Source: Candidatus Omnitrophota bacterium (GTDB lineage Bacteria > Omnitrophota > Gorgyraeia > Tantalellales > Tantalellaceae). From it: 64,000 nt of DNA. How positions within the stretch are numbered: the stretch's first letter is position 1; the number at the start of each line of letters is the position of its first letter. The stretch is taken from the NCBI GenBank assembly GCA_015231405.1, contig JADGBR010000003.1, forward strand, positions 29,549-93,548. Reading direction: 5' to 3'. The position numbers were made by a program, and so were the translations under genes. Under the pieces are notes generated by a model. That model searched no databases. It was not told the origin of the DNA and saw nothing but the letters and a program-made list of their open reading frames with translations. Below, piece after piece: positions 21,921-48,464 of the stretch.

Positions 21921-21949
21921 TTGACAAATCTGTTAAGATTTGATAAACT
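21921..21949 (+). promoter_or_regulatory. Candidate sigma70-type promoter for the 6951-aa gene: TTGACA, a 17-nt spacer, then TAAACT.
   Basis: The -35 hexamer ttgaca at 21921-21926 is an exact consensus match. A 4/6 -10 hexamer taaact lies at 21944-21949, about 60 nt upstream of the ATG at 22010. Confidence 0.35.
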
Positions 21950-22009: not shown

Positions 22010-25000
22010 ATGTTCAAGAAAATCGTTGTTTATTTCCTGTGCATCACCTTCCTTTTCGACCAAAGCGGGATAGGGAAATATGCCTATTCTCAGGGATCTC
22101 CCCGGGATACCTTGGCTGTAACTTCCATGTTCAATGAGCTTAGCGCCAGTGTCGCGGGGATGTCTGAGAAAGAGGGACACTCACCGTTCGATGTCATACG
22201 TAAGCATTTCGAAGAAGAATCCTTTATATTCCCGTTCATAATTTTCACTTTAGGTCGGGTATTCATAAAAGAGACATCCGGCGATATTGTGTACGATGAC
22301 GAAGTTCTCCGCGGGCATTTGGGCAGAACGCTTGTGGACAGGTTCGGCGGAGCGGATTCGGAGTTTTTTATCAAATATGATGTGAGAGGAGCTTATCGGG
22401 ATAAGGGCTCTATCGTTATCCCTTCAAAGAACGGGGATATTCGTTACAGGTTCTTCCTGATTGACGATAAGGAGAAGTTTTCCGGAGAGGATATCATAAA
22501 AGAATGGGAACCGGTCGAGCTGGAGGACCAGAAGACGAACCGGAAGATCGTTATGGCCGTGAGGCAGGAGAATGTCCCGTACTCCGTCCATGAGAGCGAG
22601 GCGAAGTGTGAAGAGAACTGCGCCTCCGGAACGTGGACCCTGGACCAGGAGCCCACCCTTAACGCGATGATATCCAGATTGATAACAAGCGGTACTGGCA
22701 ACGTTTCAGATGAGGAAAAATACGTGAAAGACATAGCCGGGATAAAGCCAGCCATACGGGACGCATTGAGACTTTATGGGGCTTCTACGCCGGATGATAT
22801 CAGGGAAGAAGACGAAAAACTCCTGGGAAGCATCGATCATTCGATGAAAGTCGATGACCTTCTCGCCAAGGTCGAGGCCCTTTTGAATAATCCGAAATTT
22901 AAGATTTTATTCCTTATCCCTGACGACGGCGAGGATAAGTTCAGTTTCCTTTTCCGTGAGAAAGGGGTGAAGCCTTATAAGCTCACGGCTTACGCGCATT
23001 TCGGGCATCATAATACAAAGGGCGCGGATAGGGAGGAAAATATTTACATATCAGCGCCGTATTATGACAATTTAACACGGTCCGACAGGATCGCGCTTAT
23101 CGTTCACGAGATGGTCCATCTCATACTTGGCCGGGGGGATAAGATCCACACGCTCGCGGATGGTATCGCCCAGTCTGTGACGTATGCCCATGAAAAGGCG
23201 AATATAGACGCTGCGGCGTTTATGGGGGAAATAACCAACTACCTTGTATCGAAGGAAAAGATGTACGTCGCCGCCGTTACGAACAACGAGGAGCTGGCTA
23301 TAGAAGCACGGGGCGAGTGGAAAGCGGCGATAAGTAAACTTGGAGATTCCGGCATGTCCGGCGAGTCTATGGAACTTTTTCTGAGGAATGATATCTCGAT
23401 GAGGGTGAAAGGGGCGTTAATAGAACTCGGCGCTTCGCCCGAGGCTGTGCCGGGTGAGTCTTTTCGTGAAAAATTCATCGAGGTATTCGGAAAAAGAGAA
23501 GGGTATATTCTCGCTAATCACCTGAATTACGAGATGAGCGCGCACCCTGCCGCCCGTCAGAATGACATCTTTTATATCATCGAGATCGTCGGTCATATGT
23601 CGGAAAGGCTGGCGACGGAGATGAAAGTGATGACAACTCAGGAAGAAGCGGCCTTCGTTAAAGAGACAAGGGAAAATGTCATAGATGAAGTCGTGAACGC
23701 TCTTTTTGACGAACCGGGCCTTAAAAGTACATGGAAAGATGAATTAGGAAAAAGCATTATCCCCATGACGCTCGATGGTTTATTTCCGGAAGAGATGTTC
23801 CGTAAAGGGTATCTGGCCGAGAACAGGGAGTATATATCCAAAAAATTAATGGGCCTGCCGATAATTACAAGCGCTTACGGCGAGGCCGATCCCGGGATAA
23901 AGAAAGTGTTCTACCGCGGCGGGGCAAGCCGGGTGGAGCTCGAAGCCACATTGTGGCATGAGATAATCCACCACCTTGGAGAGATCGGGGTCCTCAAGAT
24001 CGACCCGAGGTGGGAATATACGCCATGGTCGGTCGACCTTTGCATGAGGGTTATCCGGAACTCAAAACTTCCAGGTTCTAGTATCGAAAAATCCGAAGAA
24101 AGAATAGCGATGTACAGCGAGGAATACTTGCCGTTCGTGAATATACTATATGCCCACGGTAAAACCCTGGGGGCCGACGAGGGAAAGAAGAAATATCTCC
24201 TGAGGCAGCTGGAGACGGAAGAAAAAGCCGCGTATTTCTCGATAGACCTTCTGGTTGACGAGGCTATCCTGGTCTGTCAGGGGACGGAGTTTTCGACGGC
24301 TGAATTGAAATATTACCGCAATAATTCTAACAGGCAATTCACCGAACCCGACGATATCGTCAGATTTAACCGCGCCAGATACGTTTCGCAACAGGCGGCG
24401 GCTTATATCATGGCAGGGATGTTCATGACGGACTATATCGATCCGGCAAAGCAAAAACATCCCTTAAGATCCCTAAGGGATTATTTCGAGGAGCTCGACG
24501 ACGTCATAGGGAAGCCCGCTCCGGTTGACCGCGATTGGGTCGATAATTTCGAGGAAGAGCTGGAGAATTTCGGGACGTCGGTATTTAAAAAAACGACGGT
24601 CATGAGGTCGTCCGACACTACCGACAGGCTGGGATTGTGGTGGGCGGACGTTGACCAGTTCAAAGTGGTGATGAATTACTGGCCCGTGACCATATGCCCC
24701 TGGGATAAAAGTAACCCTGACAGGACAAAAGCCCGCTCAGACGCTAAAAAGAGGGGGCTCGGTAATTTCATGCTCGCCAGATACAGGGGCGAGGCTATGA
24801 AGGAGGCCGAGAAGACGGTCGAGGCGCATCATGAGTTCTTCTGCCGTCCCGAATTAGACATACTCTGGCAGACCCTTCTTATCCCGAGGTCGATCTTTAG
24901 CGCTATCCCCGATACTTTAAGGAAAGAAGTATCCGAGGATAAAAAGGAGAAATACAAGGACGTCCCGGAGCTCATACAGGCCGTATTCGACGGTAAATAT

Positions 25001-28000
25001 GATATGGGGAGAAGGGACGTCGAGAAAGGCATATATGATTCGTATTACAGGCATCTCAAATACCTGGATTCTATCCTTTACATGTGGACGAAGTATCGTC
25101 CTCTTGAGGATAAAGATTCACTTCCGATGGACCCGCGGGTAGACGCGGGTAGCGACGTCGAAGAGGCGTTGCGGAATACCTCGGGCGCATGGGAAAAGAT
25201 AATGTTCCGCGTGAACGAACATAATGAATATGAGGATATTTTCAATATCATCGAAACGGAGATATTGCCCGAATATATGAAGCTGTTCGAAGCGGATGTG
25301 AAGGAGGAAAAGGCTAAAGAGGCTTTAAGGCAGATGCCGGATAAAGGAAGCGTTAAAGACCCGGGTGATCTCACACCTGAAGAAATAGATGAGCTGAATA
25401 AAAAATTCGATGAGCTGCCGGATGAAATAAAAGAAGCCATAATGCAGGATATCATGGATCAGATGAACTCAAGTCCCATGAACAGCAACGGGAGCGGTAA
25501 CGGCGAAGGTGGAAAGAGCGGTCAGGCTCAGCAGGGTAAGCCCGGAAAGGGATCTAAAGGAGGACAGGCAAGGCCCGGAAAACTTTCGGGACAGCATGGG
25601 ACGCCAACCCCCGAACAACTCCAGAACGAAATAGACGGTATTGAGCGTACGGTTGACGCGCTCGATAAGATGGTCGATGACATAGCTAACGGAGCACAGG
25701 GGATTGGAGAAGGCTCGGGGGATATCAATGATGGTGTTCAGGGTCCACACCCTGGAGGTAAACCTGAAGGCGAAGGGGATAAAGGAGGCAAAGGGCAAAA
25801 AGGTAATGGAGGGGTTGATGTTGAAGGCTTGCAGGGGAAAGCCGGCGATCTTCAGAAAGCTGCCCAGGGGCTTGGCAATCACGGGAATAATTTGAGCCAA
25901 AGCGCCGGTGATCTTCTCAACTCGACTTTTGACGCCACAGGGGCGCTCCCGCATCCTGGTATGGGTAAAGGCGCCCGGAAGAACGCCGCCGAATTCGATA
26001 AAAAAGCAAAAGAAGTTAACGACAAGATAAAAGCGCTTCAGGATAAGATAAACGAGTTAAAGCAGCTCCTTGACAGGATGAAGGAAATAAAAGATCAGGG
26101 CAGTAACCCCCAGCAGATGGGACAGGCGGCCGGCAAGGTAGGAGGGAAAGCCAGGGAGGTAAAGAACGCGAGCAGCGGGATAAAACAGGGGGTGGAAGGG
26201 TCTAAGGAGTCGCTTCAGGGACTCAAGGAGAAGTTGGGACAGATAGTGAAGGATGTCAGGGGATTGGCCGGGAAAGGGAAGGGTGAGGTCGGAGCTGGAG
26301 GGTCGAAGGTCGAAGGGAAAGGGGGAGCAGAAGGGGATACCGGGGATAATAGGGGTGAGCCGGCCCCGGGGAAGGGGCAACCGGCAATAAACGATGCGAA
26401 CGATCAACCCTCACGAGGCTCCGACGGGAACGCTTTACCGGACGGTAAGGATAATACGGGTAAAAGCGCCTCTACCCCGTCAATGTTCAAGGACCAGGGC
26501 ACAGCGGAGTCTAACAGGAACAAAATACCGCATATACCTTTTAAGAGCGGCGCGCCCGCGACGGCGCTTCAAAATATAGTGGATAATTCCGCAAAGACCG
26601 GTGAAGAAGGCTCCGGCGCCCTAGAGGTATCTGTCGACGATGAATTCGAAACGGAAGTCGATCCTTCATGGCAGGATATGCGCAATGAGATGCTCTGGAA
26701 ACAGAATGAAGATGAGACGGGTCTTAATAGGAAAGAATATGCGAGATATTATAAATACCTGGAAATGCTCGGCGGCCAGGATACCATAGACGAAATGAAG
26801 GAGTCGTTCAGGTATCTCCTGGGCCTGGAGGAAAATCCAAAAAAGTTCTGGAGAAAATACAGCGGTATGCTGACGAAAGCCGTAAAAGTCGTAATGGGAC
26901 GTAAAGGCTACAGGATAACCAGGAAAACTAAACCCAAACCTTTAAAGGTATCTCTCCTTGTCGACGTGAGCGGCAGTATGCATGATAGAAAGAGAATAAC
27001 CCAGGCGGCGCTAACCATAATGATGATGCTTGAGGTCATCCTTGACCTTAACGAGGACCTGGAGAGTGCCGGCCTTCCTCCTATAGAGTTCGAGGTAGGC
27101 CTTTTCTCGGAAGAGCCCAAGGTCTGGATAAGCCATGAAAAGAGCCTGAGCGTCGAAGGAGAGACCCGTAAACAAAGGCTTATCTACGATACCATAACCA
27201 AAGGTCTTTTAATGGGCGGCGGGTGGACCGACGACACCAAGGCTATCGGGACTATGATCGACCGGGCCAGTAACGCCGAAATGACCACATGGGACGCGGG
27301 CGATGAAGCCAGGAGAATACTATTTTTCCTCTCGGACGGTAATCCGAACACATGGGAGGGAGGCGATATCCAATATCTCGTGAATACTTACGCTCAGGAC
27401 GTGGTCGAGAATCCGGTCGAGGTATTCGGCGTGAGTATGGGCGATGAGGAAGCCAGGAAATACACCGCCCATAAGTTCGGCGACAGGGCTGTTATCCCGG
27501 AGCGAGAGGATATGAGCGATATACCCGAAAAAGTCCTCACTCGTTTCCAGGAATGCGTAACTGTAGCCGCTACCGAGTACAGCTGGGCGGACCTGTTAAC
27601 GCTTGCCGCCACGATAGGGTGGTTCCTGATCCCGACTTTCCTGAAACCCGCTTATGATATCCTGACGTCCCTTGCCGGCACTTTACTTGTCAGGGGACAG
27701 AACGGAGCGGATACTAACGCCGAGAAACCCTACAGGGAGACCGGATACAAGAACTTCAGGTATCAGGAGAAGGACGGCAAGGACTGGCTTGTGTATTTTA
27801 TTAAGGACGAGAAAGGCAATGTGATAGAGGAATACAGGTGGCAAAGGGGCGCCGGCGGGGCAATGTGCCCCAAAATGACGACGTTCGACGACCGGTATAA
27901 CGAGAAACTTATCTCGGATATCATTTCCATGTCATGCCAGAGGGATGTCCAGTACACTTCGTACTCGAAGAACGGTGACTATTATCTCAGGTACCAGGAG

Positions 28001-37000: not shown

Positions 37001-40000
37001 TGCTCTTATGATCTTCGTGGGATAAGGCAGGGTGGGGTTGTTTCTCTCGTTAGATACAAAGACGGAATGGGGGATCCTAGATTATTCCATTTCCAGGGAC
37101 CGTCGTTCATTAAGGCCGGGAATAACGGGATCCTATACCTGTATAACAAGACAATAAAGACGCTTATAGCTTACGACCCGGAGACGGAAGAACTTTACAC
37201 GGAGTTCGGTTTGAAAGGACAGGTGCGTTTCAACTTTGGCGCCGGTACCGGCGATATTGATATGACCGCTATGGGTTTTGACAGTAAAGGGAATGTTTTT
37301 GTGGGGGTGTCGGTCGCCGGGCGTCATTACATTGAAGCTCTGAATAATAGAGGTCAAGGGATCGGTATATTCACACCTACACTGGGAGTTGCCGGGAGTG
37401 ACAAATATTGCGAGGTGCCAGCTCCGGTAACCGGCATAAGTTTCACTTATAAAGGCGATGAGATCGTCAATATGACCGTAAGTATGCAGAACGGCGAGGA
37501 TAGTTTAGCCGGGTTTACCCGGGATGAAAAAACAGCCGGAAAGCTGGCGCTTGACCCTAAATATGATCGTAAAGGATTAAAGGGCCATATCCCGTTCGGA
37601 GGCGCTATGCTCGACGGAATATCCGCCATGCACGGCAGACCCGACGGTACGCTTATCGCGATGAGCAAAGGGTCGAAGACGATGGCTGAACTTACACCCG
37701 ACGATGCGGTATTTGCCGGGATAACGGACGAGTCACCTGAGGAAGAACCTGGTGAAAAAGAAAAACTTCTCGCGGATATCAAGCGCCGTATCGAAGAAGG
37801 TAAAGACCGTACTGCGCTAGAGTTATCCCTGCTGAAAAGCCTCGCGGAAAATACGGCAAACGGGAGTTCACCCGAAGACGTATTACAGGCATTGCTGGGA
37901 TCATTGCCTGAAGAAGAAGGTAAGGAGAGGCAAACCCACACCTATACGGACGGTTCGGAAAATGAGCCGGAGGTAATTGACGAGGGTTCGTTGGGAGCGT
38001 TCGTGTCAGAGCTATTCGGCTGGGACAAGGGCGGAGACGCGGACATAGCCATGAGCCCTGACGGAACGATCGTAGAACTCCGTTTTCATAACGGCATGGG
38101 GTCATTGGGCATACACGGTCCTGACGGCGCGGTCGAATGGGTGGACGAGGCGAATGGAAAATTCAAAGAACCCCGGGCGGTAGGCGTAAGCCCGAACGGC
38201 GGATGGTATTTTGTGCTCAATAAAGACGGAAGTGTAAGCGTCCTGGACAATAAAGGCGTTCCTCAGGATGTCGAGGCGCGTCCGGAAAACGGCATTATTA
38301 TTCAGGAAGCCGTCGATATGGCCGTTGTGAATAACGGCAGCCTTGTTATAATAGACAGTACCGGCAGACAGATATTTAATATCTTTTCGACCGCTCCGGG
38401 TAAGATGGAATATTCGGGTGGGGATATTGCCGCAGGCCTAGACCTCCTTTCGGTGGATATCAATAAGAAGACCGATGATATCTATATCCTTACCGAAAAC
38501 AATAAGGTCCTCACGCTTGATAAGTTCAGGAACGATAAAACAGTTCATGGGGACAGCCCTCTTGTGGATGTCTTGGAAATACTGCGCCTAGCCGGAGTGC
38601 CTGGCGAGATCATAAGCACTATCGATCTTAAAAAAATAGCCGTCGACCCCGACGGTAAAATAATGCTATACAGCATATGCGACGCGGAGAGCGAGGACGA
38701 CGCGGAGCCATACGGCCAATTCATTTTCCTCACACCGGACTTTCAACTGGACAGGACCGTTAACGGCACGGGCATAGTTGACGAAAGAGATCTGGGCGTC
38801 CGCGCGGCCGGCGCGATAAGCGCAACCGGTAAAATGTCCTTTCTTGTGGGAGATAATTCATCGAAGGCGATGAAACGGGTTGTGATCAAGGGAAGGCCCA
38901 TTACGAACTATAGCGCGAATCCAATTCCCGAATTTAACGGGATAAAAGCTGTCGATGTATTGATCAATAACGATGGAGGGGTAAGTCTCCTACCCGATGA
39001 CCAGGGGAAGTCATTAGGAGAAGTCGGGGGAAACCTGTTCGTCCTTAACGATAAAAAAATTAAAGTTACGGGGATCCATGATAATGAGCCTGACCTTATG
39101 TTCGGTAACGGCACCGGCACGATCGAGCCTCGGGGATTCGATCTTGATAACCCGGCCGCCATTGCCGTCTTAGGACGCGACCATATATTGATAGCCGATA
39201 ATTTGATGTCCGGCATAGGACCGCGGCCCGTTTATTGCGTCGACAGGAATGGGAATAAGGATGATAGTTTCGGCACAGTAAACCCTGATACCGGCGAAAA
39301 GGGTCAGATATATCTCTCCGATAATATCGTAAAGGCTGCGGTAAACCATCTAAAACGAAAATTCTATGTTCTGACCGTCATTAATACAGTCGAATGCTAC
39401 GATCATAACGGCAAAAAGGATAACGGATACGGGATAGACGGAGTTTTGGACATTAAGAAACAGCTTGGCATGGGAAGCGGCGCGGAAAATCTCGAACTCG
39501 CCGGTGTCACTATCGACCAGAATACCGGTTATATTTACGTCACCGATAAAGGGAACGCGAGGATATACATGTTCGACGAAAATGGCGCCGCCTTTTACCA
39601 TAACGGGAAACCATATTGTATAGACGTATCAGACGGCGCATCGGAACGGAAACCCGAAGGCATTGGCGTTAAAGGCGACGGCAGTATCATCTTCGGCGAT
39701 ACCAAAAACGCCGAGGTGATAAAGCTCGTTCCGGCGGGGTTGACTTCCGGCGTGACCGGAACTCCCGTCTCCGGAAGATCGACGGCTCCGGTGCCGATAC
39801 GTCTCCGGGCCACGAGCCTGGCCGTGACTAAAAATAATGATATTGTCGCGCTGGAATCAGGGAACTCGACCATTAATTTCGTCGACATCGGAGGTAAAGT
39901 TAAAATGGCGGCAGTACCCATACTGAGCCATTTGTCCGCGGCTATGGACGGGGAAGGCGAAAACTTTTTTGTTCTGGAGAAAGATAAGACGGATGCGACT

Positions 40001-42865
40001 TATATAAAAGTCTATAGCAGTTCGACATATGGCAAGACCGGCATAGAATTCGGCAAAGAGAAAAACGACAGGATAGATCCCCAGGGGTTCACTTTCGATA
40101 ACCCCGTAGACATCACCGTGATCAACCATGACAGGATACTGGTAGCGGATAAGACGGTAGGGGTTATCTATTGTATCAACAGAAATGGCGATTTGGTCAA
40201 AAGCTTTTGGGATGAGGTATCTCCGGAAAAAGGCCGTATTGTGGTCGGGATAGGAGAAAATTATAACATTACGATCGACAGAAAAAATTCGAGGATCCTT
40301 GTTTTAAAGGATGACGGTGAACTGTTGTTCTTTCGCTTTGACGGAAGGCCCGCTAAGCGAAAGATCTATGATATGGGTATATTCGATAAATTGAACGTGG
40401 CTACTTGGCTGGATATTTTTAAAGGCCCGCCTACTTCCCTGATGAATACGCCGGGAGTACTTGATGCCTGGCGTAATATCCATCCGTTTGTCACCTTAGA
40501 TCTGAAAACCCCGGAATTCGCGGGCATAACATCCGATCCTCTAACTGGTAATATTTACGTCTCGGATAAAGCGAACGATTGCGTCTATGTGCTTGACCAT
40601 AACGGCCTTTTCATCCCTCCGGCCATTATTAAAGGTCCCGACCACGGCTTCACTAAACCCGGGGCGCTTGTTTTTGACAAGGATGGCAACCTGGTGGTTG
40701 GCGATATTGCCAATATGACGTTGGTCACGATCGCGACAGGGAAAATTGTCCCGACCGGAAAGCCTCGCGCCGTAGCGGTCGGTAAACCCATCAATATACT
40801 TACGGAGCCGACGAAACTAGGCGTGAATAAGGATAATGAGATCATTGCCGTCCAGCAGGGGAGACACAGGAACTGGTATGTCGATAGGAACGGTGTGCCT
40901 CAATGGTTTGATTACGATGATCGCATCCAAAGTTTCGGCATGGACGCCGAAAACGAAAGAGAATTCGTCATAAATAAAGACCCCGAAGGGATGTACGTGC
41001 ATGTTTTTCTCAGTACGAAAAGCGCCGCGGAGTCCGTGGACCTGGATTTTGGTGCGAGAGAGGACGGCCAGATCCATCCCGACGGGTTCTCTTTCGCCGA
41101 CCCCGTCGACGTCGCCGTGATCGACCATGACCATATACTTGTGGCTGACAAAGGGTCAAGTTGCGTGTGGTGTATGGATAGAAATGGCAGGTTATCAGAT
41201 AAAGATTTCGGTTCGAATGGGAAGGGCGGTTTTGTAGCGTCGGTCGATTGCGAAAAACTTGCCATCGACAGGAAAAACAGGCGTTTTGCAGTGCTTGACA
41301 GCAAGGGCAATGTGAGATTCTTCGGTTTTGACGGGATAGAAATTCCGGTGACAATATTCGGTATAAAAACCGCCTGTGCGGAAATACCAGCCTGGTTAGA
41401 TTATTTCCATAAGGATATTGTTCCGGTCGGCGACGCGAAGCGTCAAATTTACCCCGAACTTCACAAGGCCCTCGAAGGCGAGCTAAAAGAGATCAAGCTG
41501 GAAGATATCACGTTCGACCCGGCGACCGGAAACCTTTTCGCTTCAGACAGCGCCAACGACAACATCTACGTCATGAACGGGAACGGCCAGCTCATACTCC
41601 CCGGCGTCATCAAAGGCTCCGAATTTGGCTTCAGTAAACCTAAGGGCCTGACGATCGATCTTGACGGCAACCTAGTCATAAGCAGTACGGGAAATAAAAA
41701 GCTCGTAAAACTGAGGTTGGAAGAGATGGCGCGTCCGGGAAGCGGGGCGAACGAGTGGAGTGCCGACCGTGGGACTGACGTTGATGTAGATGTAATAGAA
41801 GAGTTAAAGCGGGAACTTGGTACTGTTCCTGATGCCGAAGGCCCGGGCGTATCGGCCGGTGAACCATTAAAGGCAGGCGACGTGGAATCCGAGGAAGTCG
41901 ACGAAAGGCAGGCGGTGCCGCCCATGCTCGGTAACGCTTTGAGGGCATTACTGGCGGTCAGGCTTTCCGAGTTCCTGGTCGGAGCGTGTTCGGTGGTCAG
42001 GCAATATGCCGGGCAAAATGGCTGGAACAGATGGGTGAAGGACGAGGCGGCGAAGGTCATTAATGAGCGCGGTGAAAAAGATGGTAGAGCCGCGGATATG
42101 CTCCGGGAAGCCATTGAAAAAGGCGAGATGGAACTTGAGGAAAATCTCACATTTGAAAAATTTGCCGCGGCAAATTTTTCAAAAAGTAGAGAAAAAATAA
42201 CGAATTTTTCAATGTATGGGGCTTCGGCGGGGTTTCCGGGTGACGGGAAAGCGAGGAACCTGATACTCTTTGCAGATGATATCCTCGATAACGCCGTGAT
42301 TTACGGGCTACGGGAGGCACTGGCGGATGTAATAGGCGGAAGGAAAGTGCTTGCCGGGGGTCGGGTATTTTTATACACGAAGGTCAAAAAGGAAGACGAA
42401 AAGAATTATTTGATTGTGGCGGGTCTCGAAAAACTTATAAAGGAAAGCGTCCCCGCGACCGAGGTTGTCCTCATAAACAAATGGGACCATAACAACCTGC
42501 AACAAGACGAGCTCACCGGGGTGAAAGAGATAAAGGAGCTCATCGAAAGCGTCAATAACGCTATGGGGAGAAAAGGGATAGGGGAGAAGGTCGTGGAGAA
42601 TAACATTCTCGCCGTGATCCGTTCATCCCGCGACTGGTCAGACGAAAGCCTGGAGTATGACTTGAAAGTCCCGCTCATACTTATGAACGGCGGCGCCCGA
42701 GGCATATTCCCGTTCAAAACAATGATAGAACTGGCTCTCCGCATCCAGAACCGGGAAGAAGGTTTTAAAGACTGGGTCCGGGAGATGTTGCCGGTCGTCC
42801 CGCTGGTAGGCGATATGTACCGGAAATATCTCGATTACCGGCAACGAGTGTTGACGCAGGCGTAA
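22010..42865 (+). CDS. Giant (6951 aa, 20.9 kb) secreted or anchored protein. It contains two HExxH motifs, a disordered Gly/Lys-rich linker, a VWA domain, two AAA_5 ATPase modules, a long NHL-type beta-propeller array and a C-terminal domain of unknown function.
   Basis: The single ORF runs from the ATG at 22010 to the TAA at 42863-42865. The N-terminal hydrophobic segment is VVYFLCITFLFDQSGIG. Motifs are given in the sub-features. Confidence 0.85.
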   Translation: MFKKIVVYFLCITFLFDQSGIGKYAYSQGSPRDTLAVTSMFNELSASVAGMSEKEGHSPFDVIRKHFEEESFIFPFIIFTLGRVFIKETSGDIVYDDEVLRGHLGRTLVDRFGGADSEFFIKYDVRGAYRDKGSIVIPSKNGDIRYRFFLIDDKEKFSGEDIIKEWEPVELEDQKTNRKIVMAVRQENVPYSVHESEAKCEENCASGTWTLDQEPTLNAMISRLITSGTGNVSDEEKYVKDIAGIKPAIRDALRLYGASTPDDIREEDEKLLGSIDHSMKVDDLLAKVEALLNNPKFKILFLIPDDGEDKFSFLFREKGVKPYKLTAYAHFGHHNTKGADREENIYISAPYYDNLTRSDRIALIVHEMVHLILGRGDKIHTLADGIAQSVTYAHEKANIDAAAFMGEITNYLVSKEKMYVAAVTNNEELAIEARGEWKAAISKLGDSGMSGESMELFLRNDISMRVKGALIELGASPEAVPGESFREKFIEVFGKREGYILANHLNYEMSAHPAARQNDIFYIIEIVGHMSERLATEMKVMTTQEEAAFVKETRENVIDEVVNALFDEPGLKSTWKDELGKSIIPMTLDGLFPEEMFRKGYLAENREYISKKLMGLPIITSAYGEADPGIKKVFYRGGASRVELEATLWHEIIHHLGEIGVLKIDPRWEYTPWSVDLCMRVIRNSKLPGSSIEKSEERIAMYSEEYLPFVNILYAHGKTLGADEGKKKYLLRQLETEEKAAYFSIDLLVDEAILVCQGTEFSTAELKYYRNNSNRQFTEPDDIVRFNRARYVSQQAAAYIMAGMFMTDYIDPAKQKHPLRSLRDYFEELDDVIGKPAPVDRDWVDNFEEELENFGTSVFKKTTVMRSSDTTDRLGLWWADVDQFKVVMNYWPVTICPWDKSNPDRTKARSDAKKRGLGNFMLARYRGEAMKEAEKTVEAHHEFFCRPELDILWQTLLIPRSIFSAIPDTLRKEVSEDKKEKYKDVPELIQAVFDGKYDMGRRDVEKGIYDSYYRHLKYLDSILYMWTKYRPLEDKDSLPMDPRVDAGSDVEEALRNTSGAWEKIMFRVNEHNEYEDIFNIIETEILPEYMKLFEADVKEEKAKEALRQMPDKGSVKDPGDLTPEEIDELNKKFDELPDEIKEAIMQDIMDQMNSSPMNSNGSGNGEGGKSGQAQQGKPGKGSKGGQARPGKLSGQHGTPTPEQLQNEIDGIERTVDALDKMVDDIANGAQGIGEGSGDINDGVQGPHPGGKPEGEGDKGGKGQKGNGGVDVEGLQGKAGDLQKAAQGLGNHGNNLSQSAGDLLNSTFDATGALPHPGMGKGARKNAAEFDKKAKEVNDKIKALQDKINELKQLLDRMKEIKDQGSNPQQMGQAAGKVGGKAREVKNASSGIKQGVEGSKESLQGLKEKLGQIVKDVRGLAGKGKGEVGAGGSKVEGKGGAEGDTGDNRGEPAPGKGQPAINDANDQPSRGSDGNALPDGKDNTGKSASTPSMFKDQGTAESNRNKIPHIPFKSGAPATALQNIVDNSAKTGEEGSGALEVSVDDEFETEVDPSWQDMRNEMLWKQNEDETGLNRKEYARYYKYLEMLGGQDTIDEMKESFRYLLGLEENPKKFWRKYSGMLTKAVKVVMGRKGYRITRKTKPKPLKVSLLVDVSGSMHDRKRITQAALTIMMMLEVILDLNEDLESAGLPPIEFEVGLFSEEPKVWISHEKSLSVEGETRKQRLIYDTITKGLLMGGGWTDDTKAIGTMIDRASNAEMTTWDAGDEARRILFFLSDGNPNTWEGGDIQYLVNTYAQDVVENPVEVFGVSMGDEEARKYTAHKFGDRAVIPEREDMSDIPEKVLTRFQECVTVAATEYSWADLLTLAATIGWFLIPTFLKPAYDILTSLAGTLLVRGQNGADTNAEKPYRETGYKNFRYQEKDGKDWLVYFIKDEKGNVIEEYRWQRGAGGAMCPKMTTFDDRYNEKLISDIISMSCQRDVQYTSYSKNGDYYLRYQEVSSNTVELMHKVKDSKGRERWVVKEPFNTSLKLPDGEPQPDESVIYEKDGLRWKRDKKGNLFIETRDEKWSLCNVEDASLSANVLVQADKDTGGYIIFDAAKARVVMATAGDAGDISVGQDMKIDIFKREKEFGNNIIRLIGDTGLGKDELMRAAASLMHEEIYFIAGNSGMEVDDLTRHETIGGGERGTSEELYTIFNRVLHNGGWVVIDEVNKVPKPVLSALKASITNKTHRQTIDGVEKSVPNHPRARIFGTSNAFTRDFSHEEPPDNAAQSRFRDIPFVWRDPDSEKELQKYLAVKKLDKMGLSAEERERRVRIIKDAANVLVDIAWPMRLGYAGYTDEQSAPTKSKKGEDLRKVWVELMQEEPKATIGKNTVKAPSPRTILNIINHAAMFPETWKNSPLSVCKLWFNLEADVLKPKVRESKQNGIMTEFMTAPGRGTRGGIKDNDFQPKLILDADESFALDKNNKNILIVTPKKSLDASGQLAQTWDPIRIWIHDEASRNMEISGVPEDIRYWLRAKNENNAKLLYQALQARALGKSLIFVGDQSAGKSVLAFAIAELLDGKDIPSVEVNLNTEKEDLTFKQRIRNFVSKFCDSPVAQALREKKTMVLEESNQGEPNVMAVLNEVAERMFLTHVDGERVGDEGDGRAGAINCINTPGEKGFNVRRFSREYIERHAVLRFDMLAPGDMADYLSYSAEREHGNERLNSKIIGCKREGVKHADGTDKWDGFAGVYQELKYRKNKAATAAERRKLPPRVPSIREFKSLIQDMVEYWNKWRLDGEGAPDHKVIFRRFVNNYFVMIGRANERYKWVETIKEAFKAAGLYPVDPNNENDADYLSEKFLDKEGVLVQKLGVLREEIDTTDDELNNALKWIQDEVMPASTFRRLEFIQKRMEEMKSGWGGLKEEEIKGRLHNMRVVWQILYLVKKERSGKGLDSHRIENLEKMEQIMTQIIQGHLLSLGMDPESFLMPAGYNDLTKPYETLADMKKREFIPTGEDVIDRALNLVTVSPKDETLINNVTGSVLADFFEGRFIIPPVIPGNKPVIPHEYAEGLRLLYITYLNMKKAQEWNGESVKIKEYLAEIEKALSMYPLNREEVEFYRDIVNIGAPDAAGKWEGIRQEIAEIKGRMSIKGSKPDRAIEEEDSTVIKGLVSAFIGNKDDRDIALIYRHLISAYVTHEGRIQDLAELDKRLARILFEAWKDALEGPTVKVKRPAADNQRLKARRALIAAAKRLVDIVRSGHPDEEPLLNKLLRRLTSKTALKAMTLEPVHTETRAPVHSDIQPTASLYEVVPWDYMDPAEDGEPSDKVNELRAMAYGPDGVLYVLDESEFRAFDETISLPFQNGLGKKKLPEKACDIAVRSDDIIFTLNDDDDTSPQGFTIRAYYKKGDEATGAVSDDGKVKLISSTNKVLKGRHIVIFQNRTICVLLRDENAIVITDKAHSQVIDPLHRTMLAGIKSADIAAMADGGDGCLLLLDKKNKQLIKVRPVTGADVNFEWSIPLEEKYGISNPTAMTRTPDGKIIIAALGADGKTVFYRLNSDGSLDKENTNNGQIMLKASVGPVKAIAADKTGKISAGPERPKVKTIWTIKETTEQVPLTPQQPVHPFTGAPVHPEYVSTKFKLNDLAANDIKDMAIDSKGNKYILADGKLFSYDRFGRKRNDFKAHGSVVDATIGLAIGLNDDLILILNAHNQSLQVISPDGTPKKNNTENNGCIKVSDAAATIVMRPGKAAVGPDGALYFTHAGNDRQLVFITPMEMSTGWIKGPACLDLPADIAATDIEKISICDDNSIIIFDKNGKALRKLRRESEQASQLVPVDGFGKDNNGKVDLKSLGIHWAQDCCLGPDGEIFLMDRDTGDSGFGAIYVLRPDGALSGKEKSSSKLRYEGEPITVGKMAVNVKGDIAVGVSHPVAGIVLSLKRKINPVKISVPAPQGLTFDNKGNVYVITGREIHSFRPDGTPNGKFGKNGIYYHWSADEEFTGITFCRESRRLLVSLSKQDVVHEISLTGEHKGTITNSFGNKLNKPGYLTTDGKGKLFVANLGDNSISVINIINKTPDATDGYVLEDSVLKLKGGIQLHQKGSMTIGNDGNIVVADYETGKIVIINKDGTKNDELDCGGEHKAIVAGVDKDRVVVSSGIGVVSADKKGGTVIRHPGIKNLDNIDGFAWDGSDRIAFISSENGLLILSEYFRRNSDMHKDEYDIAKIPGTGEAVHYVEQVKVTDSESAFSGVAYDSKGNVYILEENRIRSYTPEGRINMDFHPSGEIVLSGKARGISIGPGDMIYTIDGTNDVEGWSLRSFSASHALRKEHKIKIFRTKKKPVVQSFHVTQAEDGTMYVVLADANEIAIIGHEELKRSSIKLNTGNLTMIGIDRNDIGGIAPAGTGCLFVLDKKEARLYKKRLKPGEVSENDPDFAPKDLKAMYGIASPVALTTSPEGKIYIAARMADGTTALYRLNNDGTLDKEGTRNGKIVLDKEIGEVKDLAVDRKGNISAVPLDKGEKNYWKITKTPKQRPDITHDTLHITQPPVTAPPVPETAVTRILNFLSGHLTTGPENKIEAAEVADYNAVKDTALSQKFNWPVMGDAAFDSKGNIYLITSCRIFSFTPAGDGWVPNTGFFGTGSYETSSDFSFKRIRIIKHGEEEHIVITNSVIMGDQKNDGEIITLRTDGTEFRRGKTDELQLDRPTLISNATGSPLIQVYNENTNSVTCHNMENMAPDISMGSDPNKGRISLNDIVTKTSDPKTSDEVTAMATDSAGRLYIAVHHKSSGEYIIHAMNKDGSPYTGFTGFGGVPGQARTEYRIIKMEFMGDGTLFLGFSVGKEEKHVHALWSLNGSGDNNLKYSYRGGNGCVGVSGEKLTELSRMAFAPDGRIFAFSKAEDYAAVITPVRSSETRAAVIPGYTAVEKVCQPTTVSGPTVILPVDVEWNKVKDMAVSGDGKIYILEEEGIHSFNRDWTRNKSFNGNGWKRAELSDKFVSFAVLEGKNRIYVIDENGSRVCSYDLRGIRQGGVVSLVRYKDGMGDPRLFHFQGPSFIKAGNNGILYLYNKTIKTLIAYDPETEELYTEFGLKGQVRFNFGAGTGDIDMTAMGFDSKGNVFVGVSVAGRHYIEALNNRGQGIGIFTPTLGVAGSDKYCEVPAPVTGISFTYKGDEIVNMTVSMQNGEDSLAGFTRDEKTAGKLALDPKYDRKGLKGHIPFGGAMLDGISAMHGRPDGTLIAMSKGSKTMAELTPDDAVFAGITDESPEEEPGEKEKLLADIKRRIEEGKDRTALELSLLKSLAENTANGSSPEDVLQALLGSLPEEEGKERQTHTYTDGSENEPEVIDEGSLGAFVSELFGWDKGGDADIAMSPDGTIVELRFHNGMGSLGIHGPDGAVEWVDEANGKFKEPRAVGVSPNGGWYFVLNKDGSVSVLDNKGVPQDVEARPENGIIIQEAVDMAVVNNGSLVIIDSTGRQIFNIFSTAPGKMEYSGGDIAAGLDLLSVDINKKTDDIYILTENNKVLTLDKFRNDKTVHGDSPLVDVLEILRLAGVPGEIISTIDLKKIAVDPDGKIMLYSICDAESEDDAEPYGQFIFLTPDFQLDRTVNGTGIVDERDLGVRAAGAISATGKMSFLVGDNSSKAMKRVVIKGRPITNYSANPIPEFNGIKAVDVLINNDGGVSLLPDDQGKSLGEVGGNLFVLNDKKIKVTGIHDNEPDLMFGNGTGTIEPRGFDLDNPAAIAVLGRDHILIADNLMSGIGPRPVYCVDRNGNKDDSFGTVNPDTGEKGQIYLSDNIVKAAVNHLKRKFYVLTVINTVECYDHNGKKDNGYGIDGVLDIKKQLGMGSGAENLELAGVTIDQNTGYIYVTDKGNARIYMFDENGAAFYHNGKPYCIDVSDGASERKPEGIGVKGDGSIIFGDTKNAEVIKLVPAGLTSGVTGTPVSGRSTAPVPIRLRATSLAVTKNNDIVALESGNSTINFVDIGGKVKMAAVPILSHLSAAMDGEGENFFVLEKDKTDATYIKVYSSSTYGKTGIEFGKEKNDRIDPQGFTFDNPVDITVINHDRILVADKTVGVIYCINRNGDLVKSFWDEVSPEKGRIVVGIGENYNITIDRKNSRILVLKDDGELLFFRFDGRPAKRKIYDMGIFDKLNVATWLDIFKGPPTSLMNTPGVLDAWRNIHPFVTLDLKTPEFAGITSDPLTGNIYVSDKANDCVYVLDHNGLFIPPAIIKGPDHGFTKPGALVFDKDGNLVVGDIANMTLVTIATGKIVPTGKPRAVAVGKPINILTEPTKLGVNKDNEIIAVQQGRHRNWYVDRNGVPQWFDYDDRIQSFGMDAENEREFVINKDPEGMYVHVFLSTKSAAESVDLDFGAREDGQIHPDGFSFADPVDVAVIDHDHILVADKGSSCVWCMDRNGRLSDKDFGSNGKGGFVASVDCEKLAIDRKNRRFAVLDSKGNVRFFGFDGIEIPVTIFGIKTACAEIPAWLDYFHKDIVPVGDAKRQIYPELHKALEGELKEIKLEDITFDPATGNLFASDSANDNIYVMNGNGQLILPGVIKGSEFGFSKPKGLTIDLDGNLVISSTGNKKLVKLRLEEMARPGSGANEWSADRGTDVDVDVIEELKRELGTVPDAEGPGVSAGEPLKAGDVESEEVDERQAVPPMLGNALRALLAVRLSEFLVGACSVVRQYAGQNGWNRWVKDEAAKVINERGEKDGRAADMLREAIEKGEMELEENLTFEKFAAANFSKSREKITNFSMYGASAGFPGDGKARNLILFADDILDNAVIYGLREALADVIGGRKVLAGGRVFLYTKVKKEDEKNYLIVAGLEKLIKESVPATEVVLINKWDHNNLQQDELTGVKEIKELIESVNNAMGRKGIGEKVVENNILAVIRSSRDWSDESLEYDLKVPLILMNGGARGIFPFKTMIELALRIQNREEGFKDWVREMLPVVPLVGDMYRKYLDYRQRVLTQA
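23105..23119 (+). other. HExxH zinc-metallopeptidase-like motif 1 (LIVHEMVHLILG).
   Basis: The HEMVH pentapeptide is embedded in a hydrophobic helix context. Confidence 0.35.
23957..23974 (+). other. HExxH(H) zinc-metallopeptidase-like motif 2 (LWHEIIHHLGE).
   Basis: Read directly from the translation. Confidence 0.35.
25480..26560 (+). other. Disordered Gly/Lys/Gln/Glu-rich low-complexity linker of about 360 aa, with an embedded short coiled-coil (KIKALQDKINELKQLLDRMKEIK).
   Basis: Composition of the translation, for example NGSGNGEGGKSGQAQQGKPGKGSKGGQARPGK and GKPEGEGDKGGKGQKGNGG. Confidence 0.7.
26940..27520 (+). other. Von Willebrand factor A (VWA) domain with an intact MIDAS motif.
   Basis: LKVSLLVDVSGSMHD has the MIDAS motif DxSGS. 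The downstream ILFFLSDGNPN is the typical VWA beta-strand followed by SDG. Confidence 0.65.
28390..28830 (+). other. AAA_5 (MoxR/midasin/dynein-type) ATPase module 1.
   Basis: Walker A IIRLIGDTGLGKDE and Walker B GGWVVIDEVNKVP, followed by RIFGTSN which resembles sensor-1. Confidence 0.6.
29600..29950 (+). other. AAA_5-type ATPase module 2.
   Basis: Walker A SLIFVGDQSAGKSVLAFAIAELL and Walker B-like TMVLEESNQGEPNVM. Confidence 0.5.
31950..41720 (+). repeat. Array of several dozen NHL/six-bladed beta-propeller-type repeats with large internal duplications.
   Basis: The blade motifs GNVYVITGREIHSFRPDGTP, GKLFVANLGDNSISVIN, GNIVVADYETGKIVIINKDGT, GNIYVSDKANDCVYVLDHNG and GNLFASDSANDNIYVMNGNG recur. 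Duplicated modules lie at about 32380-32900 vs 35130-35640, and at about 40000-40750 vs 41050-41720. Confidence 0.65.
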
Positions 42866-46887: not shown

Positions 46888-46912
46888 CGACCGCGAAAGG
46901 ATCGATCAGGAT
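46876..46912 (+). promoter_or_regulatory. 9-bp stem hairpin (atcctgatc / gatcaggat, 19-nt loop) overlapping the SD and start codon of the DUF2779-like gene.
   Basis: Read from the sequence. The stem's 3' arm includes the first two bases of the ATG (46911-46913), and the loop contains the SD aaagga. Confidence 0.35.
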
Positions 46913-48449: not shown

Positions 48450-48464
48450 AGGAGGATAACTGAT

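What the first reader, a model, noticed from the sequence alone, without database searches (positions are those of the whole stretch)
22010..42865. A single 20.9-kb gene fuses a midasin/MoxR-like AAA_5 pair and a MIDAS-containing VWA domain to a roughly 3300-aa NHL beta-propeller array
A VWA domain with an intact DxSGS MIDAS (about 26950) precedes two AAA_5 modules with Walker A/B (about 28400 and 29630). These are the parts of a MoxR-VWA or midasin-type remodelling system, normally encoded separately. Here they are in one secreted or anchored polypeptide together with two HExxH motifs, a 360-aa Gly/Lys-rich disordered linker and dozens of NHL-type blades. An ATPase in a protein with an N-terminal signal-like segment raises a topology question: is the N-terminus a signal anchor that leaves the ATPases cytoplasmic? 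The combination is unusual and worth structural modelling.
Basis: partly seen in the sequence, partly recalled or inferred. Interest (0 to 1): 0.75.

Follow-up and report, generated by a model that had tools for sequence, protein, structure and literature searches.

The report
Giant bacterial midasin-like ATPase–MIDAS–propeller protein
One uninterrupted 20.9-kb gene from a Candidatus Omnitrophota genome really does fuse a metal-dependent adhesion (VWA/MIDAS) domain, two midasin/NorQ-type AAA+ ATPase modules, protease-like HExxH modules and about 3,300 residues of NHL propeller blades; the front half is a conserved cassette shared by several dozen giant proteins, and its function has not been studied.

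Summary
ORF 22010..42865 (+) is intact and encodes 6951 aa. It is GenBank MBF0215926.1, "AAA family ATPase", from a Candidatus Omnitrophota MAG.

Tools confirm these parts:
- A Sec-like N-terminus.
- Two HExxH modules.
- A Gly/Lys-rich linker.
- A VWA domain with a complete MIDAS (D1652-x-S-x-S, T1740, D1776), invariant in 25 relatives.
- Two AAA_5 modules. Pfam gives 84 bits. A family profile hits midasin at 8e-52 and CbbQ/NorQ/CobS at about 1e-9. The AF2 model has pLDDT 84.6 and matches dynein AAA pairs.
- At least 43 NHL-like blades between aa 3309 and 6565.

New findings:
- aa ~500-3100 (HExxH...E domain, linker, MIDAS, beta domain, AAA1, AAA2, helical region) is a conserved cassette. It occurs in about 41 clusters of giant proteins from Omnitrophota, Elusimicrobiota and Auribacterota.
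- The propeller array is this protein's own variable module.
- AAA1 has a degenerate P-loop (GK-D/G), whereas AAA2 is canonical.
- The hydrophobic segment after the VWA is not conserved, so the VWA and ATPases probably lie on the same side of the membrane. The signal-peptide versus ATP paradox is unresolved.

Most likely it is a self-contained midasin/MoxR-VWA-type remodelling machine. It is a new variant of a known kind. Interest 0.6.

The parts
22010..42865 (+). Whole gene, 6951 codons plus stop. Product is identical to MBF0215926.1 (Candidatus Omnitrophota MAG).
21921..21949 (+). Sigma-70-like promoter candidate (TTGACA-17-TAAACT, with TG) about 60 nt upstream of the ATG.
   Evidence: consensus match only
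22010..22096 (+). Sec-type signal-like N-terminus: MFKK + IVVYFLCITFLF + ...AYS/QG.
   Evidence: Read from the sequence. A similar hydrophobic N-terminus occurs in nearly all complete relatives. No SignalP was available.
22607..23449 (+). First small HExxH module (aa 200-480), with HEMVH at nt 23105-23119. Invariant signature AHFGH...H[E/D]xxHLxxGxxxxxH. Present in only a subset of relatives.
   Evidence: Weak Pfam matches: PhageMetallopep in 4 of 6 members (best 7e-4), SprT-like in 2 of 6. No PDB hit.
23450..25399 (+). Conserved N-terminal core (aa 481-1130). Mostly helical, with invariant H650-E651-x-x-H654 (nt 23957-23971) and E669 (nt 24014-24016). Putative gluzincin-like metallopeptidase.
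25400..26689 (+). Low-complexity linker (aa 1131-1560): Gly 18%, Lys 10%, net charge -11, with an embedded coiled-coil segment.
   Evidence: partly conserved in relatives
26882..27559 (+). VWA domain with complete MIDAS: D1652-V-S1654-G-S1656 (nt 26963-26977), T1740 (nt 27227-27229), D1776 (nt 27335-27337).
27581..27703 (+). Marginal hydrophobic segment (WADLLTLAATIGWFLIPTFL..., KD19 = 1.61). Not conserved in the family.
27707..28339 (+). Conserved beta-rich domain of unknown fold (aa 1900-2110; family motif GY+HFYxQE...W+RGxGG).
   Evidence: no Pfam or PDB match
28382..28909 (+). AAA_5 module 1. Degenerate Walker A GDTGLGKD (nt 28424-28447), Walker B VVIDE (nt 28619-28636), N2254, R2273. The model shows helix-2-insert and pre-sensor-1 hairpins.
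28910..29569 (+). Enlarged helical lid of module 1, a small beta insert, and the helices leading into module 2. Contains the family motif (K/R)APSPR.
29570..30109 (+). AAA_5 module 2. Canonical Walker A GDQSAGKS (nt 29639-29662), Walker B MVLEE (nt 29828-29845), sensor-1 N2656, R2675. All are invariant.
30290..31879 (+). Helical extension after the ATPases (aa 2761-3290). Its first ~350 aa are conserved in the family.
31907..41749 (+). NHL-type beta-propeller array (aa ~3300-6580). At least 43 detectable blades; units of about 300-330 aa share 26-41% identity. Interrupted by an acidic helical stretch at aa ~5130-5340. Specific to this protein.
41930..42862 (+). C-terminal ~310-aa domain of unknown function. 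Shared only with the closest relative, P0002.

Best explanation
The gene encodes a real giant multidomain protein. It belongs to an undescribed family of Omnitrophota, Elusimicrobiota and Auribacterota proteins built around a conserved engine. The order of the engine is: Sec-like N-terminus, HExxH...E (zincin-like) domain, flexible low-complexity linker, MIDAS-bearing VWA domain, beta domain, then two tandem AAA_5 modules.

It most likely works like midasin or a MoxR(CbbQ/NorQ)-VWA pair whose parts have been joined into one chain.
- Several chains (probably three, giving six AAA modules) assemble into a ring. This is inferred.
- AAA2 hydrolyses ATP. This is inferred from intact, invariant motifs.
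- AAA1, with its GK-D/G P-loop, is a degenerate structural or regulatory site. This is inferred.
- The MIDAS ion captures an acidic residue of a target or docks on the ring. This is by analogy with NorD and Rea1.
- The lineage-specific C-terminal array, here about 10 NHL propellers, selects and holds the target. This is inferred.
- The HExxH domain may then cleave the target. This is weakly supported.

What is shown: the ORF, the domains, motif conservation, the family and its taxonomic range. What is not shown: oligomeric state, substrate, protease activity and cellular location. The confidence given covers the mechanistic reading; the domain anatomy itself is much more secure (above 0.9).
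For: - The ORF is intact and matches a deposited protein.
- AAA_5 scores 84 bits.
- A family profile hits midasin at 8e-52, CbbQ at 6e-10, NorQ at 7e-10 and CobS at 1e-9.
- Outside the family, the hits whose source names were checked (P0049, P0055, P0059) are eukaryotic midasins, in a search of 1.84 billion representatives.
- The AF2 model of aa 2105-2760 has pLDDT 84.6 and pTM 0.86. Both modules show H2-insert and pre-sensor-1 hairpins. It aligns to consecutive dynein AAA modules at E~1e-15.
- The MIDAS residues DxSxS, T and D are invariant in 25 of 25 sequences.
- The VWA profile hits integrin I domains, midasin MIDAS and CobT.
- AAA2 residues G2544, G2549, K2550, S2551, E2612, N2656 and R2675 are invariant. 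AAA1 keeps K2145, E2209, N2254 and R2273 but lacks the Ser/Thr.
- The cassette (aa ~500-3100) is conserved in about 41 clusters with E<1e-30, all inside proteins of 2000-7500 aa.
- The C-terminal modules vary between relatives: NHL, HEAT-like and other repeats.
- No conserved partner gene lies downstream, which fits a self-contained machine.
- The finger-in-pore VWA/AAA mechanism is described for NorQD and Rea1 in PMC13036017.
Against: - An N-terminal Sec-type signal in nearly all complete relatives predicts export, and there is no ATP outside the cell.
- No conserved transmembrane segment separates the ATPases from the exported part.
- Only two AAA modules are present per chain, and oligomerisation was not tested.
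- The AAA1 P-loop is non-canonical.
- The window's own VWA score is just below Pfam's cutoff.
- There are no expression or protein data.
Confidence: 0.5

Rival explanations
1. It is an exported surface adhesin or predation factor. The signal peptide is cleaved and the whole protein lies outside the cytoplasm. VWA/MIDAS and the NHL propellers bind prey or matrix, and the HExxH domains degrade it. The AAA_5 pair either acts only as a nucleotide-independent scaffold, or works with ATP available in or released from the prey.
For: - Sec-like N-termini occur across the family, and there is no conserved internal TM.
- VWA, NHL and zincin domains are common in extracellular proteins.
- Giant Omnitrophota proteins are predicted to be mostly extracellular and are linked to predation. 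AAA_5 is among their 20 most frequent domains (West-Roberts et al., 10.1101/2023.11.21.568195).
- A relative lies on a contig binned with Methanosarcinales, the prey group of Velamenicoccus.
Against: The full catalytic set of AAA2 (Walker A and B, sensor 1, Arg finger) is invariant across relatives sharing only 27-47% identity. That argues for selection on ATP hydrolysis, which needs a compartment that contains ATP.
Confidence: 0.3
2. It is a single-chain version of the MoxR-vWA-centred conflict (defence) systems described by Kaur, Burroughs, Iyer and Aravind. A conserved NTPase/vWA core would be coupled to rapidly swapped sensor or effector modules (propellers, HEAT repeats, peptidases), acting in the cytoplasm against invaders.
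For: - The architecture is a well-preserved core plus highly variable C-terminal modules, which is the hallmark that paper gives for conflict systems (PMC7159879).
- MoxR-type ATPase, vWA, peptidase and beta-propeller are all present.
- A paralogue (P0027 = MBF0216171.1) has a GenBank accession close to that of the window protein, so it probably comes from the same MAG submission.
Against: - No PADLOC model matches.
- There is no Pfam bpMoxR hit for the window protein.
- The AAA modules are AAA_5 (CbbQ/midasin type), not classical MoxR AAA_3.
- A signal peptide is present.
- Those systems are multi-gene and are enriched in multicellular bacteria.
Confidence: 0.12
3. It is a cytoplasmic or membrane-tethered assembly chaperone, as NorQD, CbbQO and CobST are. 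It would insert a metal or remodel one specific large complex, with the propellers acting as a scaffold.
For: The closest solved single-module relatives are CbbQ, NorQ and CobS, all of which pair with VWA proteins (CbbO, NorD, CobT).
Against: - No client operon lies nearby.
- The size and the variable modules are unlike any known maturation factor.
- A signal peptide is present.
Confidence: 0.08

Closest known systems
Midasin (Rea1/Mdn1), eukaryotic ribosome-assembly AAA+ protein
   Same: - AAA_5 modules lie in tandem on one giant chain.
- A MIDAS-type VWA domain is on the same polypeptide, next to a long low-complexity linker.
- It is the best PDB hit of the family profile (8e-52).
- The non-family hits whose source names were checked (P0049, P0055, P0059) are midasins.
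   Different: - Two modules rather than six, so there is no single-chain ring.
- The VWA lies N-terminal to the ATPases rather than at the far C-terminus.
- The linker is Gly/Lys/Gln-rich rather than Asp/Glu-rich.
- No midasin lid domains (AAA_lid_5, AAA_lid_7) were detected.
- It carries a Sec-like signal, HExxH domains and a propeller array.
- It is bacterial.
MoxR-class CbbQ/NorQ/CobS ATPases with their VWA partners CbbO/NorD/CobT
   Same: - Same AAA_5 module type, with H2-insert and pre-sensor-1 hairpins.
- The partner domain is a VWA with a DxSxS-T-D MIDAS.
- The likely shared mechanism is VWA docking on the ring (PMC13036017).
   Different: - Those are two separate small proteins (about 30 kDa and 70 kDa) that form a homohexamer plus one adaptor and serve a defined client enzyme.
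- Here everything is fused, the modules are duplicated with one degenerate P-loop, and no client operon is present.
Giant Omnitrophota proteins ('Archaeovorins'; West-Roberts et al., bioRxiv 10.1101/2023.11.21.568195)
   Same: - Same phylum.
- Giant mosaic proteins with signal-like N-termini.
- AAA_5 is listed among their frequent domains, and peptidase domains occur.
- ORFs A and B in this window carry sugar- and acyl-metabolism domains like those described there.
   Different: - 6951 aa against 10,000-85,000 aa or more.
- No SecA-like domain, no glycosyl hydrolases or transferases, and at most one weak TM rather than many.
- The zincin-MIDAS-AAA_5x2 cassette is not described in that paper; text searches for MoxR, von Willebrand and NHL returned 0.
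MoxR-vWA ternary conflict systems (Kaur et al., eLife 2020, PMC7159879)
   Same: The component types match (MoxR-like ATPase, vWA, peptidase, beta-propeller), and so does the pattern of a conserved core with variable modules.
   Different: - Those are multi-gene operons with VMAP or iSTAND components.
- Here there is a single chain, of AAA_5 type, with no PADLOC or bpMoxR match.
FtsH-type AAA+/zincin fusions
   Same: An AAA+ ATPase and an HExxH metallopeptidase lie on one membrane-targeted chain.
   Different: - A different AAA clade (classical versus H2-insert/AAA_5) and a different peptidase family (M41).
- A different domain order.
- No detectable homology.

Membership tests
AAA+ ATPases, AAA_5 (PF07728; midasin/dynein-related/CbbQ/NorQ group, H2-insert clade) | Profile match above the curated threshold | tested here: met
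   84.3 bits against a cutoff of 22, two stretches. The family profile hits midasin at 8e-52 and CbbQ, NorQ and CobS at about 1e-9.
AAA+ ATPases, AAA_5 (PF07728; midasin/dynein-related/CbbQ/NorQ group, H2-insert clade) | AAA+ alpha/beta core with helix-2 insert and pre-sensor-1 beta-hairpins, followed by a helical lid | tested here: met
   The AF2 model (pLDDT 84.6) shows both hairpins in both modules. Foldseek matches dynein AAA pairs at E~1e-15.
AAA+ ATPases, AAA_5 (PF07728; midasin/dynein-related/CbbQ/NorQ group, H2-insert clade) | Canonical Walker A GxxGxGK[ST], Walker B hhhhDE, sensor 1 and Arg finger | tested here: met
   Module 2 has GDQSAGKS, MVLEE (E2612 invariant), N2656 and R2675, all invariant. 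Module 1 does not meet the feature: GK is followed by D or G in 23 of 25 sequences.
VWA domain with MIDAS | VWA profile match | tested here: inconclusive
   The window alone scores 23.7 bits against a 23.8 cutoff. But 13 of 14 relatives match PF00092 (best 1.3e-10), and the profile hits integrin I domains at 2e-6 and midasin MIDAS at 4e-4.
VWA domain with MIDAS | Five MIDAS ligands: DxSxS, T and D | tested here: met
   D1652, S1654, S1656, T1740 and D1776 are invariant in 25 of 25 sequences.
Midasin (Rea1/Mdn1) family | Six AAA modules in one chain forming a ring | tested here: not met
   Only two modules are detected by Pfam, the PDB profile search and the AF2 model.
Midasin (Rea1/Mdn1) family | Order of ring, helical linker, D/E-rich region, then C-terminal MIDAS | tested here: not met
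   The order here is linker, MIDAS, AAA1, AAA2. The linker is Gly/Lys-rich.
MoxR-VWA two-component chaperones (NorQD, CbbQO, CobST, RavA-ViaA) | Separate ATPase and VWA genes next to a client operon | tested here: not met
   The two are fused in one ORF. The neighbours are unrelated giant ORFs, a DUF6973 protein and, in the closest relative, proC.
MoxR-VWA two-component chaperones (NorQD, CbbQO, CobST, RavA-ViaA) | VWA finger inserted into the pore of a hexameric ring | not testable with these tools
   This needs multimer modelling or cryo-EM.
NHL-repeat beta-propellers (PF01436) | Repeated NHL blades above threshold | tested here: met
   NHL scores 77.3, 35.7 and 22.7 bits in three segments against a cutoff of 20. 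There are 43 blade-like matches, and the ScyF NHL model gives 6.6e-25.
Zincin (gluzincin) metallopeptidases | HExxH plus a downstream Glu ligand on a zincin fold | tested here: inconclusive
Archaeovorin-type giant Omnitrophota proteins | Over 10,000 aa, many TM helices, SecA-like domains, glycosyl transferase and hydrolase content | tested here: not met
   The protein has 6951 aa and at most one weak TM. None of those Pfam domains were detected.
MoxR-vWA-beta-propeller ternary conflict systems | bpMoxR-type ATPase, or a PADLOC or other defence model match | tested here: not met
   No bpMoxR hit at E<=0.1. PADLOC gives no hit for the ATPase, VWA or propeller segments.

The most novel reading that the evidence does not exclude
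The family may be a bacterial, exported or prey-delivered counterpart of midasin: a mechanochemical puller that ultra-small predatory or epibiotic bacteria deploy at or inside their prey. The MIDAS and propellers would grip prey structures. The tandem AAA_5 ring would use prey-derived ATP to extract or unfold them for the attached zincin. As the nearest prokaryotic tandem AAA_5+MIDAS fusion, it could also bear on the origin of eukaryotic midasin.
Probability: 0.12. Interest if true: 0.85.

Novelty: new variant of a known kind. Interest (0 to 1): 0.6.

Why it matters
AAA+ and VWA partnerships (midasin, NorQD, CbbQO, the chelatases) are a general but poorly understood remodelling principle. This family supplies a natural single-chain version with three unusual features: a duplicated ATPase in which one site is degenerate, an attached putative protease, and swappable target-binding arrays.

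It comes from a phylum suspected of predation, whose giant proteins are almost entirely uncharacterised. The conserved Sec-like signal on a protein whose ATPase site is under clear purifying selection poses a sharp, testable topology question.

The cassette of about 2,600 aa is small enough to express. Motif-level predictions (K2550/E2612 against K2145, and D1652/S1654/S1656) make the mechanism directly testable.

Tried and rejected
- The look-up of encoding contigs with neighbour ORF E found nothing on record.
- The search for homologous proteins with aa 1601-2950 returned nothing. It missed even the identical deposited protein, which shows a sensitivity limit of the word index.
- tblastn against phages gave no match, so there is no sign of phage origin.
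- PADLOC gave no match for the ATPase, VWA or propeller segments; only two weak coiled-coil-type matches (ZorA, JetC, E~2-3e-3) fell in the linker. The window has no tRNA genes or Rfam matches.
- Single-sequence PDB search of the VWA-AAA region gave only noise. A family profile was needed.
A 6-sequence alignment worked.
- I suspected that one C-terminal sorting domain is shared by the giant ORFs of the window and the family. Rejected: jackhmmer and hhalign link only P0001 with P0002, and ORF A with P0013 and P0017. The other groups are unrelated at this sensitivity.
- I looked for a conserved downstream partner gene. Rejected: the window has a DUF6973 protein there, and the closest relative has proC.
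- I tested whether an internal TM acts as a topological switch. Rejected: it is not conserved.
Full report

Yes. The window contains one uninterrupted ORF at 22010..42865 on the + strand, 6951 codons long. A 20.9-kb open frame cannot arise by chance in DNA of about 50% GC. There are no long internal DNA repeats that would suggest assembly collapse; the only direct repeat is a 40-nt motif encoding 'PVH' linkers. A sigma-70-like promoter candidate lies about 60 nt upstream.

A full-HMMER search of 1.84 billion representatives returned an identical 6951-aa protein. It is GenBank MBF0215926.1, 'MAG: AAA family ATPase [Candidatus Omnitrophica bacterium]', on a 178-kb contig. The gene is therefore deposited, but annotated only generically.

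**2. Anatomy (aa numbers; nt coordinates are in 'parts')**

- **aa 1-29: N-terminus.** MFKK-IVVYFLCITFLF-...AYS/QG has the n, h and c regions of a Sec signal peptide. No SignalP was available.
- **aa 200-480: first HExxH module.** It is present in only six relatives. The invariant signature is AHFGH...H[E/D]xxHLxxGxxxxxH. It weakly matches small zincin families: PhageMetallopep in 4 of 6 members (best 7e-4) and SprT-like in 2 of 6.
- **aa 481-1130: conserved, mostly helical core.**
  - H650, E651, H654 and E669 are invariant in 25 sequences.
  - The AF2 model (pLDDT 78.3, pTM 0.70) places the HExxH helix beside a small sheet.
  - Foldseek and PDB sequence searches find nothing significant.
  - The metallopeptidase reading is therefore plausible but not established.
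- **aa 1131-1560: low-complexity linker.** Gly 18%, Lys 10%, net charge -11, with a coiled-coil piece that is conserved in relatives.
- **aa 1625-1850: VWA domain.**
  - Alone it scores 23.7 bits against Pfam's 23.8 cutoff.
  - However, 13 of 14 relatives match PF00092 (best 1.3e-10).
  - The family profile hits integrin I domains (2e-6), midasin MIDAS (4e-4) and CobT (2e-3).
  - All five MIDAS ligands (D1652, S1654, S1656, T1740, D1776) are invariant.
- **aa ~1858-1898: marginal hydrophobic segment.** KD19 is 1.61.
- **aa 1900-2110: conserved beta-rich domain.** It matches nothing known.
- **aa 2125-2700: two AAA_5 modules.**
  - Pfam gives E=1e-23 and 84.3 bits.
  - A 16-sequence family profile hits midasin at 8e-52 over several of its modules, then CbbQ (6e-10), NorQ (7e-10) and CobS (1e-9). 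Per module, the midasin and CbbQ/NorQ scores are similar, at about 39-41 bits.
  - The AF2 model of aa 2105-2760 is confident (pLDDT 84.6, pTM 0.86). Each module shows the helix-2-insert and pre-sensor-1 hairpins typical of this clade. An enlarged lid and a small beta insert lie between the modules.
  - Foldseek aligns the pair to consecutive AAA modules of dynein motors (E~1e-15, TM 0.45-0.49 normalised to the query).
- **aa 2761-3290: helical region.** It is partly conserved.
- **aa ~3300-6580: NHL-type propeller array.**
  - Pfam NHL scores up to 77 bits, and the ScyF NHL model gives 6.6e-25.
  - There are at least 43 blade-like matches at 40-60-aa spacing.
  - Units of about 300-330 aa share 26-41% identity.
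  - An acidic helical interruption lies at aa ~5130-5340.
- **aa 6641-6951: C-terminal domain.** It matches no family.

**3. The two ATPase sites differ**

In the 25-sequence alignment, AAA2 keeps a canonical and invariant set: G2544, G2549, K2550, S2551, Walker-B E2612, sensor-1 N2656 and R2675. AAA1 keeps K2145, E2209, N2254 and R2273. However, the residue after the P-loop Lys is Asp or Gly, not Ser/Thr, in 23 of 25 sequences, and the Walker-B Asp is replaced in several.

I infer that AAA2 is the hydrolytic site and AAA1 is a degenerate structural or regulatory site, as in several modules of dynein and midasin. If the chains form a ring, the invariant R2273 would complete the AAA2 site of the neighbouring chain. 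That is inference only.

**4. It is a family, and the conserved part is not the part that looks most striking**

The representative search gave 342 hits at E<=1e-3, 89 at <=1e-10 and 41 at <=1e-30. The 41 best cover the whole VWA-to-AAA2 stretch and lie within proteins of about 2000-7500 aa, or fragments of such proteins.

Tiling the giant against these hits shows that aa ~500-3100 is shared by about 20-40 relatives. The propeller array (aa 3300-6600) is essentially unshared, and the C-terminal domain is shared only with the closest relative, P0002, which is 44% identical over the cassette.

Other members carry HEAT-like repeats, other beta repeats, a PPP-phosphatase-like segment or their own NHL blades after the cassette. 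This comes from reading the sequences returned.

Named members come from Candidatus Omnitrophota MAGs, one comes from an Elusimicrobiota MAG, and one IMG protein is called 'MoxR-like ATPase'. A scan of one genome per species found 16 loci:
- 7 in Omnitrophota;
- 2 in Elusimicrobia/Elusimicrobiota;
- 1 in Auribacterota;
- 2 in MAGs labelled only 'uncultured bacterium';
- 4 in bins labelled Methanosarcinales, Actinomycetes, Actinomycetota or Planctomycetia, which may be mis-binned.

P0027 (MBF0216171.1, 5168 aa) carries the same cassette. Its accession is close to that of the window protein, so it is probably a paralogue in the same MAG.

Beyond the family, the hits whose source names were looked up (P0049, P0055, P0059) are eukaryotic midasins, and two of the four whose domains were checked (P0049, P0053) match the midasin-specific MDN1_4th lid.

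**5. Context**

The gene lies between other giant ORFs on the same strand:
- ORF A (3..11648) has PMI-, ROK- and PRK-like domains.
- ORF B (11664..21461) has PTA_PTB and GNAT domains.
- ORF I (53013..61934) gives a weak RHS match.

A small ferredoxin gene reads divergently just upstream. The downstream gene encodes a TM protein with DUF6973. In the closest relative the downstream gene is proC. No partner gene is conserved, which fits a self-contained machine.

**6.

Nearly all complete family members begin with a positively charged n-region followed by a hydrophobic stretch. This is the pattern of a Sec signal or a type II anchor, and it predicts that what follows is exported.

The hydrophobic segment after the VWA is marginal here (1.61). 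No segment reaching KD19 1.5 is detected there in 19 of 25 relatives, and two others (P0016, P0042) have multi-TM inserts at that position. It is therefore not a conserved topological switch, and the VWA and the ATPases most likely lie on the same side of the membrane, as expected if they cooperate.

A real conflict remains. The sequence predicts export, yet the AAA2 catalytic residues are under strong purifying selection and need ATP. I could not resolve this with the tools available. The options are:
- export with action in or at prey cells;
- a non-functional or retained signal with a cytoplasmic protein;
- nucleotide-independent use of the fold.

West-Roberts et al. met the same difficulty with giant Omnitrophota proteins. 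They list AAA_5 among the 20 most frequent domains in those proteins.

**7. Most likely mechanism**

By homology, the engine belongs with the AAA_5/VWA remodelling machines. In NorQD and Rea1, a loop of the VWA domain inserts into the pore of the AAA ring. ATP hydrolysis then twists or pulls on whatever the MIDAS or adaptor holds (PMC13036017).

Here the adaptor and two ATPase modules are on one chain, preceded by a flexible linker and a putative zincin, and followed by a large, lineage-specific binding array. I therefore propose an oligomeric, probably trimeric, ring:
- AAA2 drives it.
- MIDAS captures an acidic ligand.
- The NHL propellers provide avidity and specificity.
- The zincin possibly processes the captured target.

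The domains, motifs, family and conservation pattern are shown. The ring, substrate, protease activity and location are inferred.

**8. Comparison with what is known, and novelty**

It is not a midasin: it has two modules rather than six, the order is reversed, and the midasin lid domains are absent. It is not a classical two-gene MoxR-VWA chaperone, not an Archaeovorin as defined, and not a PADLOC or bpMoxR conflict system (see the membership tests).

It works most like midasin and NorQD/CbbQO. It resembles the Kaur et al. conflict systems in having a conserved core with swappable modules. Searches of the two Omnitrophota giant-protein papers found no mention of MoxR, VWA/von Willebrand or NHL. 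The wider literature search returned no paper whose title or abstract describes such a fused bacterial cassette.

I classify it as a new variant of a known kind. It is a deposited but uncharacterised protein, and its conserved cassette appears to be undescribed.

**9. Verdict**

Interest is 0.6. The architecture is unusual and the mechanism is testable, but function and location remain open, and the general phenomenon of giant mosaic Omnitrophota proteins that include AAA_5 is already known.

Noticed in passing
window 3..11648 and 11664..21461 (+): Two more giant ORFs lie directly upstream on the same strand. ORF A (at least 3881 aa, cut at the window start) has phosphomannose isomerase, ROK and PRK/uridine-kinase-like domains. 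ORF B (3265 aa, signal-like N-terminus) has PTA_PTB and GNAT domains. These are mosaic 'enzyme-array' giants like those reported for Omnitrophota.
   Followed up: partly
window ~10900..11645 (C-terminus of ORF A): The last ~250 aa of ORF A are homologous to the C-termini of two members of the MIDAS-AAA_5 family, P0013 and P0017 (phmmer 1e-9; jackhmmer 1e-47 to 1e-60). A C-terminal module is therefore shared between otherwise unrelated giant proteins. The C-terminal domains of other members fall into separate groups that hhalign does not link.
   Followed up: partly
window 21558..21725 (-): A 55-aa 2x[4Fe-4S] ferredoxin (two CxxCxxCxxxCP motifs) with an AGGAGG Shine-Dalgarno sequence reads divergently from the giant gene. 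The giant gene itself has no obvious Shine-Dalgarno sequence.
   Followed up: partly
window 21822-21845 / 21863-21886: A perfect 24-nt inverted repeat with a 17-nt spacer lies in the divergent intergenic region between the ferredoxin gene and the giant gene. It is not followed by a T run. Its function is unknown; it could be an operator or an RNA hairpin.
   Followed up: no
window 53013..61934 (+): A further 2973-aa ORF with a signal-like N-terminus and only a weak RHS-repeat match. It is preceded by a 734-aa protein with a CheR-like methyltransferase domain at 50500..52704.
   Followed up: no
window 46911..49664 (+): An adjacent DUF2779 (512 aa) and DUF2130 (399 aa) gene pair lies downstream. 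It has no evident link to the giant gene.
   Followed up: no
L003 (JAIWAR010000003.1), L006, L008, L012: Relatives of the cassette lie on contigs binned as Methanosarcinales archaeon, Actinomycetes, Planctomycetia and Actinomycetota. The Methanosarcinales case could be a mis-binned Omnitrophota epibiont of a methanogen, which would fit the reported Velamenicoccus-Methanosaeta association.
   Followed up: no
P0027 = MBF0216171.1 (not in the window): A second protein (5168 aa, partial) carries the same cassette and its own NHL-like C-terminal blades. Its GenBank accession is close to that of the window protein, so the same MAG probably holds at least two paralogues.
   Followed up: partly
window 31815-31854, 32817-32864: A short repeated DNA motif encodes Pro-Val-His-rich linkers (…EPVHTETRAPVHSD… and …QPVHPFTGAPVHPEY…) at the start of the propeller array and between propeller units.
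   Followed up: no
tool behaviour: The word-index search (search for homologous proteins) returned nothing for a 1350-aa query, although the identical protein is in the protein collection. A negative result from that tool for giant or low-complexity-rich proteins should not be read as absence.
   Followed up: yes
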